DNA of 64,000 nt, from positions 394,460 through 458,459 of the forward strand of contig JAUYID010000009.1 in the NCBI GenBank assembly GCA_030704665.1, given 5' to 3'. A program made the translations under genes and the position numbers. Positions within the stretch are counted from its first letter, which is position 1, and each line of letters opens with the position of its first letter. Below are positions 12,324 to 60,921 of the stretch, in pieces. The DNA is from a bacterium (GTDB lineage Bacteria; Patescibacteriota; Microgenomatia; Woykebacterales; RBG-16-39-9b). The notes under the pieces were generated by a model, which saw only the letters and a program-made list of their open reading frames with translations, was not told the DNA's origin and searched no databases.

Positions 12324-12382
12324 TGTCATTCTGAAGCGAAGCTGAAGAATCTTGAGATCCTTCACTAGTCGTTCAGGATGAC
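12324..12382. repeat. ORF-less palindromic element (MITE-like derivative of the GIY-YIG element)
   Basis: TGTCATTCTGAAGCGAAGCTGAAGAATCTT followed by GAGATCCTTCACTAGTCGTTCAGGATGACG. The two arms are the left and right TIRs of the GIY-YIG elements fused without an ORF. It sits at the boundary of the GC-rich block. Confidence 0.7.
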
Positions 12383-12500
12383 GTTAGGGTGTTGAATAAG
12401 ACTATTTAAGTAACTTTCGGGTGAGTGTTCGGGAGTTCTTTCGGGTCCTTCGGGTGCGAGCTAGGTTGGTTAAAACCGTTTGTGCTCGCACCCTTGACCT

Positions 12501-15897: not shown

Positions 15898-16146
15898 GGC
15901 AGAGGAGACAGGTCGGTAGCCGTGGGAACAATTACCACTACCCACGGCTACCCTCGCCTAGTTTATCCTCTCTAAGTCAGGATCTTTTTGTCATTCTGAA
16001 TGTAATGAAGAATCTCTTTTCCTTCTATCACCCTTGCAGCCAATAGTGACAAAGCTTCTAGATCCTCGTTTTCACGAGGATGACGACTATCATTATTAAA
16101 AATAAGTAATTGGAAGATGAAAAGATCTCCCTCCTTTGAGTTCTTC

Positions 16147-30506: not shown

Positions 30507-30839
30507 TGTCATCCTGAGCGATTAGCGAAGGATCTCGTCCCCCAAGTCTTTCCAAACCTGATTGTTGGTTTCTATTAAACTGATCTTTTTTGATCTCAGC
30601 CAACCTTTTATTCTCTTCTCGCTTTCAATAGCTTGACTTGAATTTTCAAATTCTTCAAAGAAAACAAGCTTATTCAGATTGTACTTTTTGCTAAACCCAT
30701 CGATCAGTTTATTTTTATTCTCAAAAAGTCTTCTTTTTAGATTGTTTGTAACACCTGTGTAGAGAACTCTGTTTAGCTTGTTGGTAATAATATAAACGTA
30801 ATAACTCATGAGATTCTTCAGCTCCGCCTCAGAATGACA
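30507..30839 (-). mobile_element. GIY-YIG element bounded by about 30-bp terminal inverted repeats
   Basis: Left arm TGTCATCCTGAGCGATTAGCGAAGGATCTC and right arm GAGATTCTTCAGCTCCGCCTCAGAATGACA are inverted repeats. The GIY-YIG ORF fills the space between them exactly: its ATG abuts the right arm and its last codons (EILR, stop) are encoded by the left arm. Confidence 0.7.
30522..30809 (-). CDS. GIY-YIG nuclease-family protein (95 aa)
   Basis: YYVYIITNKLNRVLYTGVTNNLKRRLFEH contains the GIY-YIG motifs and matches the COG2827/YhbQ-like small URI-domain proteins. Confidence 0.85.
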   Translation of the reverse strand: MSYYVYIITNKLNRVLYTGVTNNLKRRLFENKNKLIDGFSKKYNLNKLVFFEEFENSSQAIESEKRIKGWLRSKKISLIETNNQVWKDLGDEILR

Positions 30840-31339: not shown

Positions 31340-31396
31340 TGTCATTCTGAAGCTAGCTTCGATTACGAAACTAAGCGAGCGGAGCTGAAGAATCTC
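31340..31396. repeat. solo left-arm copy of the TIR with internal palindrome GAAGCTAGCTTC
   Basis: TGTCATTCTGAAGC..GAGCGGAGCTGAAGAATCTC. Followed by the motif TTGCTTGTCCAA, which also occurs at about 45450 and 55625. Confidence 0.55.
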
Positions 31397-36153: not shown

Positions 36154-36202
36154 CGGAAAGATTCTACCACTTTCAAAAAGAAGCTGACAATTGAGTTATT
36201 TC

Positions 36203-36254
36203 GTCATCCTCGCGTAGGTGAGGATCTAGATTCTCAGTCAAGCTGAGAATGACA
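36203..36254. repeat. palindromic element variant (two short hairpins, GTCATCC...GAATGACA ends)
   Basis: GTCATCCTCGCGTAGGTGAGGATCTAGATTCTCAGTCAAGCTGAGAATGACA. Same architecture as the copy at 55517. Confidence 0.55.
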
Positions 36255-40083: not shown

Positions 40084-41037
40084 CTACTTCCCTGTTTTGA
40101 AAATGACGGGAATAACGATTTTGTTTTGCTCCTTACCATCCTTGGCAGAGATTGTGAAAATTTCTATACTCCCCTGCTTTGTGCTTGGCTTTTTGTATTT
40201 GACAGTCTTGGAAAAATTCGACAGTTCCTGACCGACGGCGGTCTTGGTCGTGGTGCTGATGAGAATATTGCCGTCTTTATCTTTGATACGCAGGTTGATA
40301 ACTGCCTCGAAGACCTCGCCTTGACCACGAATTGTGACTGGGTTGGCGATAGTGTCTCCTGTCCACGGTGTCTCGACGATGAACATGCCGCTGCTTGACC
40401 AAGGCGGATCAGAGGTTCCTTCCAGGAAACGAAGGTTGTCCAAGAGAGCTTGGAGAAAGGAAGAATCAGTCGCGAAGTTTTTGATTTCCGAAGTAAATTT
40501 AAAACTAAAATGTCTTTTGAACTTGGTTAGGCTCACTACTTCAGTGCGGAAGCCAGGTTTTTTCGGGGTATTGTAAACAGCCTTTTCTGCCTCAGTTCCA
40601 GCAACTTTTAGGCTTTGCGTTTTGACGATATCAAGATTGCTGCTGACTTGGACGAGTGCAGGAGGCGCGACTTCAATTGAAACTGCCGAGGCAGAAGCAG
40701 TTGCCTGCTTTGCGCTTTGCGTAGCGACAAAAACTGATTTGAGCTCTAGAGTCAAACTTGTTCCGTTTTGGGCTTTGGAGGTGTCTTTGATTTCCTCGAC
40801 ACTACGTAGACAGAGCTGGTAGCCTTGTTTTTTGTTTTGGTAAACTACCCCACCTTGGCAGTAAGGCGTTGCTGAGTCGGTTGCGGTTTTGGGTGATTTG
40901 TTTTCCGGCAAAACCCTTTTGTTTTGCACAACATCAATAGCCCAGGCGAGAGCACCGACCACCAAAAGCATGCCGAAAGCGATGATCACAATTTCACGTT
41001 TGCGCAGGCGGATATTTTGTTTTGGTGGCGTTTCCAT
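40084..41037 (-). CDS. membrane-anchored secreted protein with C-terminal Ig-like/GerMN-like domain
   Basis: N-terminal TM helix and a C-terminal beta domain (TIRGQGEVFEAVINLRIKDKDGNIL). Confidence 0.4.
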   Translation of the reverse strand: METPPKQNIRLRKREIVIIAFGMLLVVGALAWAIDVVQNKRVLPENKSPKTATDSATPYCQGGVVYQNKKQGYQLCLRSVEEIKDTSKAQNGTSLTLELKSVFVATQSAKQATASASAVSIEVAPPALVQVSSNLDIVKTQSLKVAGTEAEKAVYNTPKKPGFRTEVVSLTKFKRHFSFKFTSEIKNFATDSSFLQALLDNLRFLEGTSDPPWSSSGMFIVETPWTGDTIANPVTIRGQGEVFEAVINLRIKDKDGNILISTTTKTAVGQELSNFSKTVKYKKPSTKQGSIEIFTISAKDGKEQNKIVIPVIFKTGK

Positions 41038-41041
41038 TTGT

Positions 41042-41416
41042 TTAGACGACCCAACTTTCCAGTTTAAAGAAAATTTGAAAAAGACTGCTTAAAAGCAAAA
41101 CTACCACTGGAATGAGGAGGTAATAAAAATAAAACGGATGTTCAAGAATCGGAGTTAGGAAAGGCACGACACTGAAGGCAAAGAGCAGAAAAGGCAGGAC
41201 CAAAAGAATGATGGCAAACTGGACAGCCGCACGTAAGGTCGGGAAAGTGCGGTGAATGAAACTTTCAAAAACGAGCCATTGTAGTAGCGTCCGGCTGAAA
41301 AGAAAAACGAGAATAAAAGCCCCCAGATTGGGCTGATAGTTGGTACCAAACTGCAAAGCAGTGGCTGAGGCAAAGATAACTGTCAAACAGTCAATAAAAA
41401 CAAAAATATATTTCAT
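41042..41416 (-). CDS. small polytopic membrane protein
   Basis: The first ATG of the track ORF is contributed by the inverted-repeat element (ATGACA), so the start is set at the downstream MKYIFV. Confidence 0.35.
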   Translation of the reverse strand: MKYIFVFIDCLTVIFASATALQFGTNYQPNLGAFILVFLFSRTLLQWLVFESFIHRTFPTLRAAVQFAIILLVLPFLLFAFSVVPFLTPILEHPFYFYYLLIPVVVLLLSSLFQIFFKLESWVV

Positions 41417-41428
41417 GGCAGTAGTAAA

Positions 41429-41529
41429 TGTCATCCTGAACTTGGTTCAGGATCTAGAGATTCCGAAACGAGTCTTCGACCGTGAGCTCAGACCGAATCG
41501 GTTCGGAATGACACAAGGACGGGATGACA
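41429..41529. repeat. composite palindromic element (two nested hairpins with TGTCATCC...GGGATGACA ends)
   Basis: ATCCTGAAC/GTTCAGGAT and ATTCCGAAC/GTTCGGAAT stems. Confidence 0.55.
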
Positions 41530-41812
41530 AGTATTAAGCAAGTCCCTTTTTATCTTAAACTAAGAAGTCCAAAACAAGCAAGAATTACAATCTTTCTGGA
41601 AACTTTGCTATCTTTCTGTTGCTTGTTTGTTGCAGGCTTTTGAAAAAAGGTGTAAAAAATTTCTCGCAGCTCATCTCTGCACCAAACCGCAAGGTTTGGA
41701 GGACAGAGTAAAATCTGGACGGCAAGGTGGGCTGCATCAAGAAAACGATCTGAAAGTTTCGTAATAGCAATATTATGAAAAAAGAAGGTCGTTTTCTTTT
41801 GTTTTCAATGAC

Positions 41813-42211
41813 TCACTTCTGAATTTGTGGGATAGAACTTTGAGGAATTTTGCGGACTTTGACTTTTTTAAAGCCCAAAGAGCTTAGTTTAGCGAGTCGA
41901 TGCAGACCATCAAGTAGGAGCCACCGATTTTTCCAAAACATGATATCAAGTGGGTGTGTTAAATCCGCTGTTTCAACTCTAGCGAGGTGTTCTTTGTGCT
42001 TCTCGGGATGAGCAAGAACCTCACTGGGTTTCAAATCATAAAACCCATTAGTTGAGCCCCAAAACGGTATTTCGAAGTGCCAAGAAAGTTCGCCTATATC
42101 CATTTCTTCTACTGGTATATTTAAGGTCCAGACTTTGCCTTCGTCCCAAGAAAAATCAAAGCCAACTTCTTTAATTATTTTTGGTAGTTGTTTTTCAGTC
42201 ATGATTGCCAA
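41813..42211 (-). CDS. hypothetical protein, possibly ParB/Srx-fold
   Basis: LLLDGLHRLAKL resembles the DGHHR motif of ParB/sulfiredoxin domains. Confidence 0.3.
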   Translation of the reverse strand: MAIMTEKQLPKIIKEVGFDFSWDEGKVWTLNIPVEEMDIGELSWHFEIPFWGSTNGFYDLKPSEVLAHPEKHKEHLARVETADLTHPLDIMFWKNRWLLLDGLHRLAKLSSLGFKKVKVRKIPQSSIPQIQK

Positions 42212-42840
42212 CCGTACTTGCCGAGAAGAGGGACAAAATAAACTAGACCATGGCTAGTTTTTTCCAATCCGCCCGCGGTTTTAACTACTTTGGTGAGTTC
42301 TTGCTCCTGCCTACTTCCGACAGGAATGACGAGTCGGCCACCAACTTTGAGTTGTTCGACGAGATTTTGCGGGATTGTTGGAGAAGCAGCAGTGACGATG
42401 ATTGCTTCGTAAAGTGCCTCAGGATTGTAGCCCTCCGAGCCGTCACCGACAACTACCGTGACATTATCAATTCCTAGTTTCATCAAACGCAATTCGGCGC
42501 TCGCTGCTAGCTCTCGTTCATACTCAACAGTAAAAACCTGCCGAGCTAGTTGGGCGAGAATCGCAGCTTGGTAGCCGCTGCCGGTGCCAATTTCGAGGAC
42601 TTTGTCGCTTGCCTTCAAATCCAGAAGATCCGTCATCAGAGCAACGAGGGAAGGTTGGGAGATAGTTTGTCCTTTGCCAATGCCCAGGGCTTGGTCAGAA
42701 TAAGCAGCCTCTCGCAGCTCTGCGGGAACAAATTTGTCTCTGGGGAGGCGCGACATCGCGTCAAGGACCGGCTTACTTATCGGTAAGTGAAAAGAACCGA
42801 CCATGTACTGTGCTTGTTTAACTTTGGGAAGAACTCTCAT
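42199..42840 (-). CDS. pcm: protein-L-isoaspartate O-methyltransferase
   Basis: GQTISQPSLVALMTDLL and VLEIGTGSGYQAAILA are PIMT signature motifs. Confidence 0.85.
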   Translation of the reverse strand: MRVLPKVKQAQYMVGSFHLPISKPVLDAMSRLPRDKFVPAELREAAYSDQALGIGKGQTISQPSLVALMTDLLDLKASDKVLEIGTGSGYQAAILAQLARQVFTVEYERELAASAELRLMKLGIDNVTVVVGDGSEGYNPEALYEAIIVTAASPTIPQNLVEQLKVGGRLVIPVGSRQEQELTKVVKTAGGLEKTSHGLVYFVPLLGKYGWQS

Positions 42841-42856
42841 TTCTAAAAATAACTTT

Positions 42857-43654
42857 TTAAGAATCTTGACTAGCTAGTTCAACTGCGCCAACGAGGGTCG
42901 AATCGGCACCAAGAGCAGGGATGGCGATCAGAGGCAGCGGGTAAATTGTCAGAAAATCGCGGATTTTTTCTACCAAAGGCTCGAAGAAAGCCTCTTTGTT
43001 GGTGGTCAGTCCCCCGCCAATTATTACAACCTCCGGTGAGAAGTGAACGATTGAATTGGTAATGCCGCGGGCGAGTCGTTCCAAGACTTTGTCCCAGTCG
43101 GGAGTACCAACGATTTCGGCTGGGTCTTTGCCGTAAAGCTCTTTTAGGCCTGTACCAGAAGAAAGTTTTTCCAAATTTTTGTTAACACCGGTGACGATTT
43201 GCTGACCACCTTCAGGATTGTAGACTCCTTTGTAGATTTGGCCGCCCGCGACTAGACCAGTACCAATTCCGGTACTGACGGTGTAATAAAGGACTGGATC
43301 CTTCTCTTTTCCAGATCCGTAAAGCGATTCCGCCAAAGCTGCCAAAGAAGCGTCATGCTCAACTTTGACTTCAAGATCAAGTTCTTGGGAAAGAATTTCG
43401 CGCAAAGGTTGGTCGCGCCAAGTTGGGAGGTTCGGCAGGGCGCGTAGCAAACCAGTTTTGGTTTCGATCGGTCCAGGAATGGCCACCCCGACTTGAGCTT
43501 TTTGGTCCCCCGCCACTTCTCGAACACGACTGACAATTTCTCGTAGAGTTTCTTTAAATTCGAGAGTGGGAAAATCAAACTTCTTGTCAACTTTTCCAAG
43601 ATTTCCAGTCGCTATACGAGTGTGAGTGCCACCGATGTCAATACCGATGTTCAT
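42857..43654 (-). CDS. ROK-family sugar kinase/regulator
   Basis: MNIGIDIGGTHTRIA N-terminal ATPase motif and ROK-type central region. The start codon abuts the TIR of the GIY-YIG element. Confidence 0.8.
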   Translation of the reverse strand: MNIGIDIGGTHTRIATGNLGKVDKKFDFPTLEFKETLREIVSRVREVAGDQKAQVGVAIPGPIETKTGLLRALPNLPTWRDQPLREILSQELDLEVKVEHDASLAALAESLYGSGKEKDPVLYYTVSTGIGTGLVAGGQIYKGVYNPEGGQQIVTGVNKNLEKLSSGTGLKELYGKDPAEIVGTPDWDKVLERLARGITNSIVHFSPEVVIIGGGLTTNKEAFFEPLVEKIRDFLTIYPLPLIAIPALGADSTLVGAVELASQDS

Positions 43655-43659
43655 AGTGC

Positions 43660-43992
43660 TGTCATCCTGAGTGACTAGCGAAGGATCTCTTCTGCTAAGT
43701 CATTCAAATTAGGGTTTTTAGCTTGAATTAAATTTATCTTTTTAATTCTTAGCCAGCCTTTAATCTTCTTTTCTGCTCTCAAAGCGTCCTCAACATTGTT
43801 AAATTCTTCAAAGAAGATCAGCTTAGTTAGATTGTACCTCTTTGTAAACCCCTCAATCAATTCGCCTTTATGCTCCAAAACTCTCCGCTCCAGGTTGTTT
43901 GTTACTCCTGTGTACAGGGAAGTATTAGTTTTGTTAGTTAAAATATAAACGTAATAACCCACTAGATTCTTCGCCTTTAGCTCAGAATGACA
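43660..43992 (-). mobile_element. second GIY-YIG element bounded by TIRs
   Basis: Left arm TGTCATCCTGAGTGACTAGCGAAGGATCTC, right arm TAGATTCTTCGCCTTTAGCTCAGAATGACA. The ORF spans from the right arm (GTG start) to the left arm (EEILR, stop). Confidence 0.7.
43675..43962 (-). CDS. GIY-YIG nuclease-family protein (95 aa), paralogue of 30522..30809
   Basis: GYYVYILTNKTNTSLYTGVTNNLERRVLEHK; about 65 percent identical to the first copy. GTG start. Confidence 0.85.
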   Translation of the reverse strand: MGYYVYILTNKTNTSLYTGVTNNLERRVLEHKGELIEGFTKRYNLTKLIFFEEFNNVEDALRAEKKIKGWLRIKKINLIQAKNPNLNDLAEEILR

Positions 43993-44013
43993 CCCCTTTT
44001 TTACCAGGGGAGT

Positions 44014-44706
44014 TTATTTCACGGTAATTGGAAAGGTTTGCTCTTCGTAGAAAAAGGTGTAGTTTTTAGTGCTTTTCGGTAGAGACCCAAAAGCTATCTC
44101 ACCACTGATAGTCTCGCCTGGTTGCACACCTTGGTCCGGAATTCGGGTGAACCCAGTCGGTTTGGTGGTGCAATCGGCGGCTCCACCTTCAGTACAGACG
44201 GTTGTCGGTGGGTCGTAAGGGTTGCCGTAGGTGTGGTTTTGGGCATCCTTAAGCTTCATGGCGAACTTTGAATAGTAAAGAGGTTGGTCGGTGTTGTTTT
44301 TGATGTCCAAAGACATGATTATCTCGAGAGTGTCATCATCAGCCAGGTTCATAGGATCATCCCATTCTTTGACACTGTTTATTGTGATTGTTAGACTGCC
44401 TATTTCCTGATTGGCACTAGCGGTTGCCTCACGCAAGGCTTTGTCGAGGAAAGCGACTTTGGCAGCTAGATCGGCGTTCTTTTTTTCAACTTTGTTCAGC
44501 TTGTCGAGCTGTGAAGTGAGAGAGTCAACTTTGCTGTTGAGGTCCTTTTTGTCTTGGCTCAAACCAGCGACAAGCCCCTGCTGCCAAAGATAAACTGCAA
44601 TCGCAGCTATTAAAGCGAGAAAAATTGAAACAGCAGCGGTGATGAGAAGGGGTTTTTTGTTCTTGGGAGTTTTGGGCTGGCTCAGGTCAACTGTCTCCAT
44701 GGGCAA
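44014..44706 (-). CDS. membrane-anchored coiled-coil protein with C-terminal DUF4352-like beta domain
   Basis: TM helix, a coiled coil (LNSKVDSLTSQLDKLNKVEKKNADLAAKVAFLDKAL) and then a beta-rich domain. Confidence 0.45.
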   Translation of the reverse strand: MPMETVDLSQPKTPKNKKPLLITAAVSIFLALIAAIAVYLWQQGLVAGLSQDKKDLNSKVDSLTSQLDKLNKVEKKNADLAAKVAFLDKALREATASANQEIGSLTITINSVKEWDDPMNLADDDTLEIIMSLDIKNNTDQPLYYSKFAMKLKDAQNHTYGNPYDPPTTVCTEGGAADCTTKPTGFTRIPDQGVQPGETISGEIAFGSLPKSTKNYTFFYEEQTFPITVK

Positions 44707-44755
44707 AAACGATTATGCTTTATTAGCTAAGTCTTGTCAATGGAAGTTGAGAGTC

Positions 44756-45343
44756 TTATTCGGGTTGATCAACTTTAAGAGCTCGGTGCTCTTCTCGGAT
44801 GTGATGACGATCTTGCCGCAGATCAGCAATCAGACCGCCGATGAGCTTGTCAGGATCAGTATCGTAAATGATAGAACACTGATGTTTGTGGGCGATTTCA
44901 GTCAGTTCTTTGATTTCGTCAGCCATGCCTCCAGTCTCTTCCAAAACAGCCAAGGGTTTACGGTCTTCAAAGGCAACGGTAAATTCGTTCAAAGTCCCCA
45001 TCCGCCCGCCGATGGTGACGACCGCATCAGCCGAGCGCGTCAAAATCAAATTTCGTCCAGAGTAACCAAAACCAGTGTAAACAATGAGATCGAAATAATT
45101 GACCGGCAGGTGGTAGCGGTAAACGTGGTCTTGGTAAGTTGAAGCTGGTGAAAAGCCGATGCTAATACCCTTCGCTTCTTTGCAGCCAACGGCAGCGTAG
45201 TGCGGTAGGCCGGTAGTAGCACCGGTGATGAGGATACAATCTCGGGCAGCAATGGCACGGCCAAGTTCTTTAGCCTTTTCGGCGTTGTCGCGGTTTAGAG
45301 TTTCTCCGGCGGCAGCACCGGAAACGCAAATCTTGAATTTCAT
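44756..45343 (-). CDS. LOG/TIGR00725-family Rossmann-fold protein
   Basis: VTIGGRMGTLNEF matches the GGxGTxxE motif of LOG/SLOG proteins. Confidence 0.6.
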   Translation of the reverse strand: MKFKICVSGAAAGETLNRDNAEKAKELGRAIAARDCILITGATTGLPHYAAVGCKEAKGISIGFSPASTYQDHVYRYHLPVNYFDLIVYTGFGYSGRNLILTRSADAVVTIGGRMGTLNEFTVAFEDRKPLAVLEETGGMADEIKELTEIAHKHQCSIIYDTDPDKLIGGLIADLRQDRHHIREEHRALKVDQPE

Positions 45344-45404
45344 GGGCAGTACTTAAAATAACTTTACCACAATTTGGCTTTTTGGGAAAAACTAAAGTCG
45401 TAGC

Positions 45405-45566
45405 TGTCACTCTGAGCGTTGAGCGAAGAATCTCTTTCTCTACTTCTTTTGCTTGTCCAAAAAGAAGTAGACAAGAAAAAGACACCCTAGAGCTGCGTCA
45501 GCTGTTGCACTAAAAGCAAAAAGACTTCGGGACTTCCTCTGGAATTCTCTCACTTCGTTCGGTCAG
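45405..45566. repeat. extended TIR-derived element (left arm, internal hairpin, degenerate right arm)
   Basis: TGTCACTCTGAGCGTTGAGCGAAGAATCTC, then the hairpin CTACTTCTTTTGCTTGTCCAAAAAGAAGTAG, then ...ATTCTCTCACTTCGTTCGGTCAG. Confidence 0.5.
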
Positions 45567-45636
45567 TTCCAGTTTCCTCTTTGTCTTTTTGCTAGTTCAA
45601 AGACGCTGTCTTCGCTAAGGCAATTTAACTTAAACG

Positions 45637-46818
45637 TTATTTGATTCCGACCCAAGAAAGGAGAAAGAGGTTGTTGTTTTTTCTTTCAACCTCGAGTTTG
45701 TCGAGAGCGTCGTTTTGCTTACCGGCAAGAAACTCGAAGCCGGAAAGTGCTTCATTGCCTTTCCAAAAGCTGACTTGATCTGTTTGCAGACGCAAGGCTA
45801 AGGACTTTTCCTTTTCAAGCCAATTCTCAGCCGCTTGTGTCACCTTGCCTATTTTGTTCTTGTCCGAGCCAAAAGTAAGCTCTGTGAAGCTGTCAAGAAA
45901 ATCGACTGCTCCGTTGACTTCCTCCAAAATATCCTGATGAAAACTCGCCATCGCCACTGGCAAATTAGCCTCATTGATCTTGTTTAAACTTTCCGCAATA
46001 GCCTTGGCTTTGGTTAGGTTGCTCTTTGCCTTTTCTTGGCTACTACCTTGCAAGGATTCAATGATCATAGAAGATAAATCAACATAGGAGTTGGCGTAGG
46101 TCAGGTAGTACTGGGCAGTTTTTTCCGCTTCATTCAAATAATCTTGGGTATCTTCGCGCACATTGTCCAGGCTATCAGCAACTGGAGCGAGACGCGCACT
46201 AGTTGAGTTTTCTTTGACCAAACTCGAGAATTTATTGACCGAGGTGAGACCATCCTCACTGACCCGTTTAGCCGCTTGGGACAGCTCCAAAAGATTGCGG
46301 TAGCCCTTCAAAGGATCCAAATCTGGGGTTGAAAAACCCTTAACATTTTTGTTTTTGGCACTAGCTGTAGCTTCGTTAACTGCTTTTTTCAAAGCTAGAA
46401 AACTTAGCTCAGCTTTTTCCCCTCCTCCCCCACCGTTGGCAGTAAGTTCGATAGTACTAACTGTGGTTGAACTTGAAGAGTTGGTTACGTAGCTATAGAT
46501 TGCTTCGAGAGATTGGTTGACTTTAGCAGTCTTGTCACTGGTTTCGGCTAGAGCCTGCCGAGTAGTTTTGATGAAAGAAAGAGCGTTTACTCGAGGTAAA
46601 ATAGCGAAGAAAGTTATCCCTGCGCCAAGAGCCAAAACAAAGGCACCTGAGGCAAGGAGAACTTTGTTGATTCCGAAGACTTTGCCGCGCCCAACCACGG
46701 TTGGAACGGTGCCCTCTCTCTGGTGAAAAAAACTGGAAGGGTGGTCCATGGGAGTGCCACAGACGTGACAGAAGTGATCAGTCGGGGCGATTTGAGTTCC
46801 ACAATTGCGGCATTCCAT
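45637..46818 (-). CDS. membrane protein with N-terminal zinc ribbon
   Basis: MECRNCGTQIAPTDHFCHVCG, then a TM helix and a long helical ectodomain. Confidence 0.45.
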   Translation of the reverse strand: MECRNCGTQIAPTDHFCHVCGTPMDHPSSFFHQREGTVPTVVGRGKVFGINKVLLASGAFVLALGAGITFFAILPRVNALSFIKTTRQALAETSDKTAKVNQSLEAIYSYVTNSSSSTTVSTIELTANGGGGGEKAELSFLALKKAVNEATASAKNKNVKGFSTPDLDPLKGYRNLLELSQAAKRVSEDGLTSVNKFSSLVKENSTSARLAPVADSLDNVREDTQDYLNEAEKTAQYYLTYANSYVDLSSMIIESLQGSSQEKAKSNLTKAKAIAESLNKINEANLPVAMASFHQDILEEVNGAVDFLDSFTELTFGSDKNKIGKVTQAAENWLEKEKSLALRLQTDQVSFWKGNEALSGFEFLAGKQNDALDKLEVERKNNNLFLLSWVGIK

Positions 46819-47226
46819 AAGCTCATCTAATTTAGACTAAAGATTGGCTGCTTGTCAAAGATTAATTAAAGAGTTGGAGATTGGTTGGGAAGGAGTGTGC
46901 GAGGTCCTTCCCGGTTGTGTGTTGTTTTGGTTACCTTCGCACTTAGGTATCTGAATCGGCTTCATCGATCTCGCCGCCGCCTTCTAGGAGGTTAAGCAAG
47001 ATGAGTTCCGGCAAGAAGAAACCGACCGTACTTCCTACTCCAAACCACAGCAAGATCTCATGTAAGGCAGGTAGCTGTCGGGGCTGGGCTGGATTGATCC
47101 AATGCGCTCTTACCAGAGCTGCGGCCAAACCCGGACCAGTGATTGCAGCTCCGCCCAAATGGAGACCCAGAATCACACGGAATGGTTTTTTCAAAGTCGT
47201 CCCTCCTAACCTTTTCTTGGCTGGCT

Positions 47227-50319: not shown

Positions 50320-50428
50320 TGTCATTCTGAGCGCTTAGCGAAGAATCTAAAAGAGATCTTTCACGGAGCCTGCACTTGAGACTCTTCACTTCGTTCAGAG
50401 TGACAGAGTCGAAGTGTTCAGGATGACA
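50320..50428. repeat. nested composite of TIR-derived palindromes
   Basis: TGTCATTCTGAGCGCTTAGCGAAGAATCT, then GAGATCTTTCACGG..., then GAGACTCTTCACTTCGTTCAGAGTGACA, ending ...TTCAGGATGACA. Confidence 0.6.
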
Positions 50429-57394: not shown

Positions 57395-57476
57395 TGTCAT
57401 CCTGAGTGTTAACGAAGGATCTCTGAGGTTCTAGCGGAATATGAACTTGAGACTCTTCGCCCTGCTAAAAGTGACA
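57395..57476. repeat. ORF-less TIR pair (left arm plus variant right arm GAGACTCTTCGCCCTGCTAAAAGTGACA)
   Basis: TGTCATCCTGAGTGTTAACGAAGGATCTC on the left. Confidence 0.6.
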
Positions 57477-60861: not shown

Positions 60862-60921
60862 TGTCATTCTGAGGCGAAGCCGAAGAATCTCTTGAGATCC
60901 TTCGTTGCACTCAGGATGACA
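60862..60921. repeat. archetypal ORF-less TIR pair (MITE-like)
   Basis: TGTCATTCTGAGGCGAAGCCGAAGAATCTC-tt-GAGATCCTTCGTTGCACTCAGGATGACA. This is the GIY-YIG element with its ORF precisely removed. Confidence 0.7.

What the first reader, a model, noticed from the sequence alone, without database searches (positions are those of the whole stretch)
30507..30839. A GIY-YIG nuclease gene sits exactly between about 30-bp terminal inverted repeats, like a compact autonomous mobile element
The 95-aa GIY-YIG ORF occupies the whole interval between the arms TGTCATCCTGAGCGATTAGCGAAGGATCTC and GAGATTCTTCAGCTCCGCCTCAGAATGACA. Its ATG abuts one arm, and its last codons (EILR plus stop) are encoded inside the other. 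Small YhbQ-like GIY-YIG proteins are usually annotated as housekeeping endonucleases. This arrangement instead suggests a selfish ORF-plus-TIR unit. A second copy with the same structure is at 43660-43992, and many ORF-less derivatives are present elsewhere in the window.
Basis: seen in the sequence. Interest (0 to 1): 0.85.

Follow-up and report, generated by a model that had tools for sequence, protein, structure and literature searches.

The report
Ssn ssDNA nuclease between hairpin repeats
The small GIY-YIG gene flanked by inverted hairpin repeats is real, but it belongs to the Ssn nuclease / hairpin-repeat system published in 2025, here in a tiny candidate-phyla bacterium, and whether such units actually move is still unproven.

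Summary
Two 95-aa GIY-YIG ORFs (30522-30809 and 43675-43962, minus strand) each lie exactly between two inverted ~30-nt units, TGTCATYCTGAG..GAAGRATCTC. About ten further ORF-less sites carry the same units. Each unit is its own hairpin, and compensatory changes across 99 distinct copies from many phyla support this. In 80 homologous loci from other species, 72 have a unit beside the gene and 42 have one on both sides.

The system is already described. Chenal et al. 2025 (PMC11893778) defined the Ssn family: 94-aa single-domain GIY-YIG nucleases that bind NTS/SRM hairpin repeats as ssDNA only and cut just upstream. Their genes are typically flanked by those repeats. The repeats match the "CGTC/TGTC-tagged REPs" of Di Nocera 2013.

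The window protein aligns end to end with the Neisseria gonorrhoeae homologue (39% identity, E 6e-26). It keeps Y6, Y17 and E64.

The mobile-element reading is only partly supported. Orthologous sites do differ by presence or absence. However, there are no target-site duplications, the two copies are only 63% identical, and each homologue examined sits at one fixed locus.

New details: a CPR host, start and stop codons embedded in the arms, and a hairpin variant that the published SRM search pattern misses.

The parts
30507..30536 (+). SRM-like hairpin unit (stem ATCCT/AGGAT). It forms the 3' arm of element 1 and holds the last 4 codons and the stop codon of the ORF.
30522..30809 (-). ssn-like GIY-YIG nuclease gene 1 (95 aa)
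30810..30839 (-). SRM-like hairpin unit (stem ATTCT/AGAAT). It forms the 5' arm of element 1 and abuts the ATG.
43660..43689 (+). SRM-like hairpin unit, 3' arm of element 2 (encodes EILR plus stop)
43675..43962 (-). ssn-like GIY-YIG nuclease gene 2 (95 aa, GTG start, 63% identical to gene 1)
43963..43992 (-). SRM-like hairpin unit, 5' arm of element 2
12324..12384 (.). ORF-less doublet with the (+) unit directly joined to the (-) unit. Its C-type arm would still encode EILH plus stop and closely resembles the 3' arm of element 2.
15989..16085 (.). ORF-less doublet: (+) unit 15989-16016, 41-nt spacer, (-) unit 16058-16085 (perfect-stem variant)
31340..31396 (+). Solo unit with a 27-nt insertion in its loop
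32864..32891 (-). Solo unit
36202..36254 (.). ORF-less doublet joined at TCTAGA. Both units have fully Watson-Crick stems.
41429..41513 (.). ORF-less doublet: (+) unit 41429-41456 and a (-) unit with a long loop
45405..45434 (+). Solo unit (one stem mismatch)
50320..50428 (.). Composite site: (+) unit 50320-50349, plus a (-) unit at 50378-50405 that appears to be nested in the loop of a degenerate (-) unit ending at 50428
57395..57476 (.). ORF-less doublet with a 25-nt spacer. The (-) unit is degenerate.
60862..60921 (.). ORF-less doublet: (+) unit, TT, (-) unit. As ssDNA it folds at -14 kcal/mol (z = -4.3).

Best explanation
Both loci are members of the Ssn / SRM system. Each encodes a 95-aa single-domain GIY-YIG nuclease of the Ssn family, nested between two inverted copies of its cognate hairpin repeat. 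That repeat is an SRM, a TGTC-tagged member of the 'CGTC REP' superfamily, and it is also scattered as ORF-less doublets and solo units through the intergenic regions of this candidate-phyla (Woykebacteria-like) genome.

By analogy with characterised SsnA, the protein should bind the unit only when the unit's (+) strand is single-stranded and folded. The fold is TGTC, a 5-bp stem, a tandem G.A, a GC-GAA-GC mini-hairpin, then the matching half-stem and CTC. The protein should then nick a few nucleotides 5' of the TGTC tag.

In these two elements the tags face outward. The predicted cuts would therefore fall just outside each end of the unit, on opposite strands.

What the sequence shows: the architecture, the hairpin, the family membership, and the conservation of the association. 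What is inferred: ssDNA cleavage by these particular proteins, dependence of repeat spread on the nuclease, and the role in this organism, which could be restriction of incoming or exposed ssDNA, or a domesticated or slowly moving selfish module.
For: Family membership:
- Both ORFs match GIY-YIG only and have a single domain.
- Y6, Y17, R27 and E64 are invariant and H31 is nearly invariant (90% or more) in 30 homologues. Y6A, Y17A and E64A are the substitutions that abolish SsnA cleavage.
- The protein aligns without gaps over 94 aa with the N. gonorrhoeae 94-aa homologue (39% identity, E 6e-26). That homologue is flanked by canonical NTS repeats, CGTCATTCCCGCGCAGGCGGGAATCTAG.
- The AF2 model has pLDDT 94, and its nearest folds are UPF0213 (1zg2) and Slx1.

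The repeat:
- 16 motif hits against 0.75 expected.
- On an alignment drawn with a sequence-only model, 99% of cells are paired, 5 of 7 pairs show compensatory changes, there are 89 double-change cells against 21.9 in shuffles (0 of 500 reach this), and slid controls give 19-45% paired.
- Only 7 of 689 cells are G-U, which fits DNA rather than RNA.
- The nearly invariant GTC before the stem and the C after it are the positions the paper found critical for cleavage and for binding.

The association:
- A unit lies within 120-150 nt in 51 of 79 upstream flanks and 63 of 78 downstream flanks. Both flanks have one in 42 of 80 loci, and neither does in 8 of 80.
- Chance expectation is about 0.03 per flank, my estimate from the shuffled-sequence hit rate.
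- Unit density peaks within 300 nt of the gene.
- These figures agree with the published 71% and 42%.
- Nucleases flanked by ATTGC-stem hairpins are each other's nearest relatives across phyla (permutation 1 of 300).

Literature: PMC11893778 and PMC3733652.
Against:
- The published degenerate SRM pattern does not match the window's units. It gives 1 hit in the window and 7 hits in 5 of the 80 loci, whereas the Neisseria NTS matches. The hairpin is therefore a diverged variant, and specificity cannot be assumed to transfer.
- Identity to the Neisseria homologue is only 39%.
- CDD cd10448 membership could not be checked directly.
- The nearest-neighbour DNA energy model gives single units only -1.7 to -3.6 kcal/mol with non-significant z-scores. 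The structure therefore rests on covariation rather than on predicted stability.
Confidence: 0.82

Rival explanations
1. Autonomous mobile element. In this reading the arm-ORF-arm unit is a compact transposon, the GIY-YIG nuclease is its transposase, and the ORF-less doublets are its non-autonomous, MITE/REPIN-like derivatives. Movement would go through ssDNA hairpin cleavage, as in IS200/IS605 and RAYT-REPIN. This overlaps with the best explanation rather than excluding it, because it adds a claim about mobility.
For: - The doublets are built from the same two arm types as the ORF-bearing units. The C-type arm of doublet 12324-12384 keeps the long loop and the EILH-plus-stop reading of the gene-bearing arms.
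- One unit appears to be nested in the loop of another at 50349-50428.
- Presence or absence differs at orthologous sites.
- Tandem amplification of units occurs next to the gene, for example 10 copies with a 68-nt period in L080.
- Nuclease and hairpin type co-vary across phyla, which implies joint transfer.
- With tags outward, the predicted cuts fall at both outer ends.
- The authors of PMC11893778 note the resemblance to an insertion sequence.
Against: - No target-site duplication or conserved target was found at nine doublet sites.
- No two units in the window are identical, and the two genes are 63% identical.
- Identical proteins found on about 24 contigs each always lie in a single context.
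- In Neisseria and in the dnaA-recF locus the tags face inward, (-) gene (+), so the geometry is not constant.
- Transposition has never been shown for any Ssn.
Confidence: 0.3
2. Homing-type selfish gene. In this reading the nuclease gene invades the centre of pre-existing doublets. Empty doublets are its target sites, and insertion splits the palindrome and so protects the occupied site.
For: - In both window elements a 273-nt cassette sits exactly at the doublet centre, and start and stop signals are borrowed from the arms.
- Empty doublets are joined by 0-2 nt at that same point.
- In Planktothrix the gene lies inside an array of doublets that is intact in other strains.
Against: - The characterised enzyme cuts upstream of the tag, not at the doublet centre, and only in ssDNA.
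- There is no DNA-binding domain of the kind found in GIY-YIG homing endonucleases. The TIGR01453 score is 17-22 bits against a cut-off of 56.
- In other phyla the gene has its own ribosome-binding site, its own stop codon and variable spacers to the arms.
- The window copies are old.
Confidence: 0.1
3. RNA-level regulatory hairpins. In this reading the units are mRNA stabilisers, attenuators or translational controls that happen to flank a housekeeping nuclease gene.
For: All units are intergenic. The purine-rich 3' half (GAAGGA) lies where a ribosome-binding site would be for the two ORFs. No separate promoter or terminator was found for the ORFs, so they are probably co-transcribed with neighbouring genes.
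Against: - Solo units occur in both orientations relative to the flanking genes.
- G-U pairs are almost absent.
- There are no Rfam matches.
- SsnA does not bind RNA.
- The tight gene-repeat association across phyla is not explained by this reading.
Confidence: 0.05

Closest known systems
Ssn nucleases with NTS/SRM repeats (SsnA of Neisseria meningitidis; Chenal et al. 2025, Nat Commun 16:2388, PMC11893778)
   Same: - A GIY-YIG protein of about 94 aa with a single domain and Y6/Y17/E64 conserved.
- Full-length homology to the Neisseria homologue.
- A directional hairpin repeat with a (C/T)GTC tag before the stem and a conserved C after it.
- The gene is flanked by repeats, and hundreds of intergenic copies are implied.
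- The association holds across phyla at similar frequencies.
   Different: - The stem and interior of the hairpin differ: a 5-bp stem, a tandem G.A, and a GCGAAGC-like mini-hairpin, instead of ATTCCCGCG..CGCGGGAAT.
- The published SRM search pattern misses the units.
- The tags face outward, (+) gene (-), rather than inward as at the Neisseria gene.
- The ORF has no spacers, and its start and stop lie at or in the arms.
- The host is a ~1-Mb candidate-phyla bacterium with at least two diverged paralogues in 64 kb.
CGTC-tagged REPs (Di Nocera et al. 2013, PMC3733652; includes dRS3 and Rickettsia RPE-4/6)
   Same: A terminal CGTC tag that is often TGTC. Stems that begin with A-T and T-A. A short loop and a short unpaired 3' tail. 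Mostly head-to-head dimers, in intergenic positions.
   Different: That paper reported no dedicated enzyme for these repeats. Its tail consensus is CCA, whereas here the tail is CTC. CPR genomes were not surveyed.
RAYT / REP-REPIN systems and IS200/IS605
   Same: A small nuclease gene flanked by inverted hairpin repeats that are also dispersed as doublets. Recognition of ssDNA hairpins. No target-site duplication. The gene is mostly single-locus and vertically stable.
   Different: The enzyme is a GIY-YIG nuclease rather than an HUH/Y1 transposase. The tag is (C/T)GTC rather than GTAG. Strand transfer has not been demonstrated.
Bacterial UPF0213 / Slx1-like stand-alone GIY-YIG proteins (PDB 1zg2; E. 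coli YhbQ type)
   Same: This is the closest solved fold. It is a minimal single-domain GIY-YIG protein.
   Different: The PDB sequence search found no match at E 0.01 or below. I found no repeat association recorded for those proteins in the sources I read. The window family keeps the C-terminal Asn (N83), which Dunin-Horkawicz 2006 assign to the UvrC+ lineage.

Membership tests
Ssn nuclease family (cd10448) | Single-domain GIY-YIG protein of about 90-100 aa | tested here: met
   95 aa. Only PF01541 covers residues 3-77. The AF2 model is a single compact domain.
Ssn nuclease family (cd10448) | Homology to characterised SsnA, with catalytic Y6, Y17 and E64 | tested here: met
   Gapless alignment over 94 aa, 39% identity, E 6e-26, with the NTS-flanked N. 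gonorrhoeae 94-aa homologue. Y6, Y17 and E64 are invariant. Identity of that homologue to NMV_0044 itself was not verified.
Ssn nuclease family (cd10448) | Assignment to CDD cd10448, or placement in the Ssn clade of a GIY-YIG phylogeny | not testable with these tools
   No CDD library or reference tree is available here.
Ssn nuclease family (cd10448) | Gene flanked by directional hairpin repeats (SRM) that are also dispersed in the genome | tested here: met
Ssn nuclease family (cd10448) | Repeat matches the published SRM search pattern HGTCWYN(0-2)YYVSBRHN(0-5)WNVSBRGN(0-2)RNCYNB | tested here: not met
   Only 1 window unit (16058-16085) and 7 units in L001-L080 match, whereas the Neisseria NTS matches. 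The HGTCWY tag and the C after the stem are shared. The interior differs.
Ssn nuclease family (cd10448) | Cleaves ssDNA only, upstream of the repeat, and in a strand-specific way | not testable with these tools
   This needs biochemistry.
CGTC-tagged REP superfamily | Unpaired CGTC/TGTC tag, an 8-9 position stem starting A-T then T-A, a short loop, a short 3' tail, and head-to-head dimers | tested here: met
   Column statistics and pair counts. Nine of 12 sites are doublets with tags outward. The tail is CTC rather than CCA.
RAYT / REPIN | HUH-Y1 (IS200/IS605-type) transposase | tested here: not met
   The flanked gene is GIY-YIG only.
Classical IS / MITE with TIRs | Target-site duplication flanking the terminal inverted repeats | tested here: not met
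   No direct repeats were found at nine doublet boundaries.
GIY-YIG homing endonucleases (I-TevI type) | Nuclease domain plus a linker and a C-terminal DNA-binding domain, with a model hit above cut-off | tested here: not met
   95 aa in total. TIGR01453 scores 17-22 bits against a cut-off of 56. I-TevI ranks only 21st among fold matches.

The most novel reading that the evidence does not exclude
Ssn-SRM units are true ssDNA-hairpin transposons, or REPIN-like replicators. Under this reading the GIY-YIG Ssn nuclease is the long-missing mobilising enzyme of the CGTC/TGTC-tagged REP superfamily. The outward-tagged arm-ORF-arm units seen here would be the autonomous form, and the heterotypic ORF-less doublets the non-autonomous form. 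That would make this a second, independent invention of the RAYT-REPIN lifestyle, built on a different nuclease fold.
Probability: 0.3. Interest if true: 0.7.

Novelty: new member of a known kind. Interest (0 to 1): 0.3.

Why it matters
The finding extends the recently described Ssn/SRM system to an ultra-small candidate-phyla genome. It also shows a very compact form, 333 bp with the start and stop codons set in the hairpin arms, and a hairpin variant that the published search pattern does not catch. Surveys using that pattern therefore undercount the association.

The comparative evidence gathered here bears on a question the 2025 paper left open: whether these nuclease-repeat pairs spread as mobile elements or are domesticated. 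The relevant evidence is the compensatory changes, the co-variation of hairpin type and nuclease across phyla, the presence/absence alleles, and the local tandem amplification.

Each diverged Ssn-hairpin pair is also a candidate site-specific ssDNA-cutting reagent.

Tried and rejected
- **Rfam.** The whole-window scan at gathering thresholds and a permissive local scan gave nothing relevant. No tRNAs were found.
- **Hammerhead-like CUGA..GAA core.** I rejected this by inspection, because the conserved positions do not fit.
- **CRISPR-like reading of the 68-nt periodic arrays.** Rejected, because the spacers are identical, so these are plain tandem repeats.
- **Target-site duplications.** None were found.
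- **Recent transposition.** Exact-protein look-ups for two multi-contig homologues returned a single context each.
- **Polymorphism between L097 and L101.** The intergenic difference is unrelated to the units.
- **Defence and phage libraries.** PADLOC gave no hits and PHROGs only weak ones.
- **PDB sequence search.** No hits.
- **Thermodynamic support for single-unit hairpins.** Not significant under the DNA nearest-neighbour model.
- **Early literature searches.** GIY-YIG combined with REP, RAYT, YhbQ, COG2827, transposase or the motif strings found nothing. The link came only through Di Nocera 2013 and the dRS3 term.
- **An earlier impression I withdrew.** I first thought ORF-less doublets share a left/right arm order with the genes. 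This is meaningless, because an ORF-less doublet has no intrinsic orientation. What holds is that each doublet pairs two different stem types.

Full report
**Observation**

The window at 30507-30839 holds a 95-aa ORF on the minus strand (30522-30809). Its ATG directly follows the 30-nt arm at 30810-30839. Its last four codons (EILR) and the stop codon lie inside the arm at 30507-30536. A second locus at 43660-43992 has the same layout. In both, exactly 273 nt separate the arms.

Both ORFs are GIY-YIG domains (PF01541, E about 1e-16). They are 63% identical to each other. tblastn finds no further copies or remnants in the window.

The arm motif TGTCATYCTGAG, with up to one mismatch, occurs 16 times against 0.75 expected. 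A sequence-only profile finds 16 strong and about five weaker units at 12 sites. Nine of those sites are doublets of one (+) and one (-) unit with the TGTCA ends outward. Two doublets contain the ORFs, and three sites are solo units. All sites are intergenic.

**What the arms are**

Each ~28-30-nt unit is a hairpin in its own right: TGTC, a 5-bp stem beginning A-T and T-A, a tandem G.A/A.G, a two-pair inner stem closing a GAA-like loop (often the GCGAAGC mini-hairpin), then the matching half-stem and the tail CTC.

I built a profile with no structure information and used it to collect 150 units (99 distinct) from the window and from 80 loci of other species. On that alignment:
- 99% of cells form standard pairs.
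- Five of seven pairs show changes on both sides.
- There are 89 double-change cells against 21.9 in shuffles, and 0 of 500 shuffles reach that value.
- Shifting the 3' partner by 1-3 columns drops pairing to 19-45%.

Stem variants ATTCT/AGAAT, ATCCT/AGGAT, ATGCT/AGCAT, ACCCT/AGGGT, ATTGC/GCAAT and others all occur. G-U pairs are nearly absent (7 of 689 cells), which points to DNA rather than RNA.

The nearest-neighbour energy model gives weak, non-significant energies for single units. Doublets fold well as long hairpins (z about -4). The case for the unit hairpin therefore rests on covariation.

**The gene-repeat association elsewhere**

The protein has 760 detected relatives at 55-70% identity in Cyanobacteria, Chloroflexi, Ignavibacteria, Nitrospinae, Omnitrophota, Acidobacteria, Firmicutes, Proteobacteria and Patescibacteria. 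Many end in DSSLRSE, DPSLRSG or EILR, and some start with VILSAAKDL or MSSRAERGIS. These are the repeat unit read in different frames.

In 80 loci fetched from one genome per species, I applied a strict test that requires GTCA plus a perfect 5-bp stem:
- A (+) unit lies within 120 nt upstream in 51 of 79 loci.
- A (-) unit lies within 150 nt downstream in 63 of 78 loci.
- Both are present in 42 loci and neither in 8.
- I estimate the chance expectation at about 0.03 per flank from the shuffled-sequence hit rate.

Unit density peaks within 300 nt of the gene and then falls to about one per 4 kb. Nucleases flanked by ATTGC-stem hairpins are each other's closest relatives although their hosts span several phyla (permutation 1 of 300). 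This suggests that nuclease and hairpin are transferred or evolve together.

**Tests of mobility**

The window genome is a relative of Candidatus Woykebacteria. Syntenic contigs from relatives (ROK 63% identical) have a 54-nt DUF4352|ROK spacer with no gene and no unit. Four such contigs contain no units at all.

In Planktothrix agardhii plasmids about 92% identical in flanking DNA, one strain has the gene inside an array of 98-nt doublets. The array lies between a PglX/MmeI gene and drmA. Two other strains have the intact three-doublet array without the gene.

So presence or absence at orthologous sites exists. Against recent movement:
- No target-site duplications were found.
- No two window units are identical.
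- The two genes are old paralogues.
- Two homologues, each read on 24 contigs, sit in one fixed context each: dnaA-dnaN-S4-[gene]-recF-gyrB, and SLT-[gene]-RF1.

**Identification**

Di Nocera et al. 2013 (PMC3733652) described 'CGTC-tagged REPs'. Their features are a CGTC tag often changed to TGTC, stems starting A-T and T-A, short tails, and head-to-head dimers. They occur in alpha-proteobacteria, Neisseria (dRS3), Rickettsia and other groups, and the authors concluded they lack a dedicated transposase. The taxa where plasmid and chromid records carry homologues of the window protein overlap that list: Rhizobium, Sinorhizobium, Sphingobium, Azospirillum and Neisseria.

Following dRS3 led to Chenal et al. 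2025 (PMC11893778). Their findings are:
- SsnA of N. meningitidis is a 94-aa single-domain GIY-YIG protein (cd10448).
- It binds the hairpin repeat NTS (CGTCATTCCCGCGMAVGCGGGAATCYRG) only as ssDNA and only on one strand, and it cuts a few nucleotides upstream.
- Y6A, Y17A and E64A abolish cleavage.
- The three bases before the stem matter for cutting, and the C after the stem matters for binding.
- 71% of homologues have such repeats nearby, and 42% have them on both sides.
- The NTS-ssnA-NTS layout is likened to an insertion sequence and to RAYT/REP, with a domestication hypothesis.
- In Neisseria the enzyme lowers transformation by NTS-containing DNA.

The window protein aligns without gaps over 94 residues with the NTS-flanked N. 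gonorrhoeae homologue (39% identity, E 6e-26). It shares the invariant Y6, Y17 and E64. Its predicted fold is closest to UPF0213 (1zg2) and Slx1. The nearly invariant GTC before the stem and the C after it in the units are the positions the paper found critical.

**What differs from the published cases**

- The published degenerate SRM pattern matches only one window unit and 7 units in the 80 loci. This clade's hairpin, with its G.A interior, is a variant that the published search would miss.
- Here and in most of my loci the tags face outward, (+) gene (-): 32 loci against 8 in the opposite arrangement. At the Neisseria gene and at the dnaA-recF locus they face inward.
- In this CPR genome the ORF has no spacers. 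It borrows its last codons and stop from one arm, and probably its ribosome-binding purines from the other.
- No separate promoter or terminator is seen, so co-transcription with the upstream gene is likely. This is an inference.

**Verdict**

This is a genuine, well-supported feature and a new member of a known kind, the Ssn/SRM system. Its most likely mechanism is strand-specific ssDNA nicking next to the hairpins. The selfish-transposon reading remains an open hypothesis that these data neither establish nor exclude.

Noticed in passing
L080:2252-2891 (also L069, L009, L028, L051): Tandem arrays of unit plus spacer lie directly beside the ssn gene. In L080 there are ten copies with a 68-nt period and near-identical spacers. 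This is local amplification, not a CRISPR-like array.
   Followed up: partly
L108:1176-2095 versus L109:2676-3120 and L110: In Planktothrix agardhii plasmids the ssn gene sits in a defence island between a PglX/MmeI methyltransferase-restriction gene and DISARM drmA. Other strains have the same doublet array without ssn, and they carry a PIN toxin-antitoxin pair instead.
   Followed up: yes
L107:1300-1960 (Sinorhizobium meliloti, between hflX and mazG): The GIY-YIG homologue is flanked on both sides by direct copies of a longer, different palindromic repeat (..CATCCCTGTGCTCGTCACAGGGAT..). My unit model does not detect it. It is probably another CGTC-tagged REP class.
   Followed up: partly
L087:2860-3420: An ssn homologue is inserted between the S4-domain gene and recF in a dnaA-dnaN-recF-gyrB origin-region cluster. 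The hairpin tags face the gene, (-) gene (+). The locus is identical on 24 contigs from many samples.
   Followed up: partly
window 50349-50428: A complete 28-nt unit (50378-50405) appears to lie inside the loop of a second, degenerate unit. This would be a unit-into-unit insertion. The unit at 31340-31396 carries an unrelated 27-nt loop insertion.
   Followed up: partly
window 41000-47000 versus L081, L083, L085, L086: Gene order around ROK is conserved with Woykebacteria-like relatives. However, the window lacks the MIP channel gene present in three of the relatives, and one relative has an HhH-GPD glycosylase gene in place of the ssn element.
   Followed up: no
window, all doublets; L109:2711-2998: Every doublet pairs two different stem types, most often ATTCT with ATCCT, in both the CPR window and the cyanobacterial plasmids. 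No doublet is therefore a perfect long palindrome.
   Followed up: partly
window 1-64000: Cumulative GC skew rises steadily across the whole window, and no tRNA or Rfam-recognised RNA gene occurs in the 64 kb.
   Followed up: no
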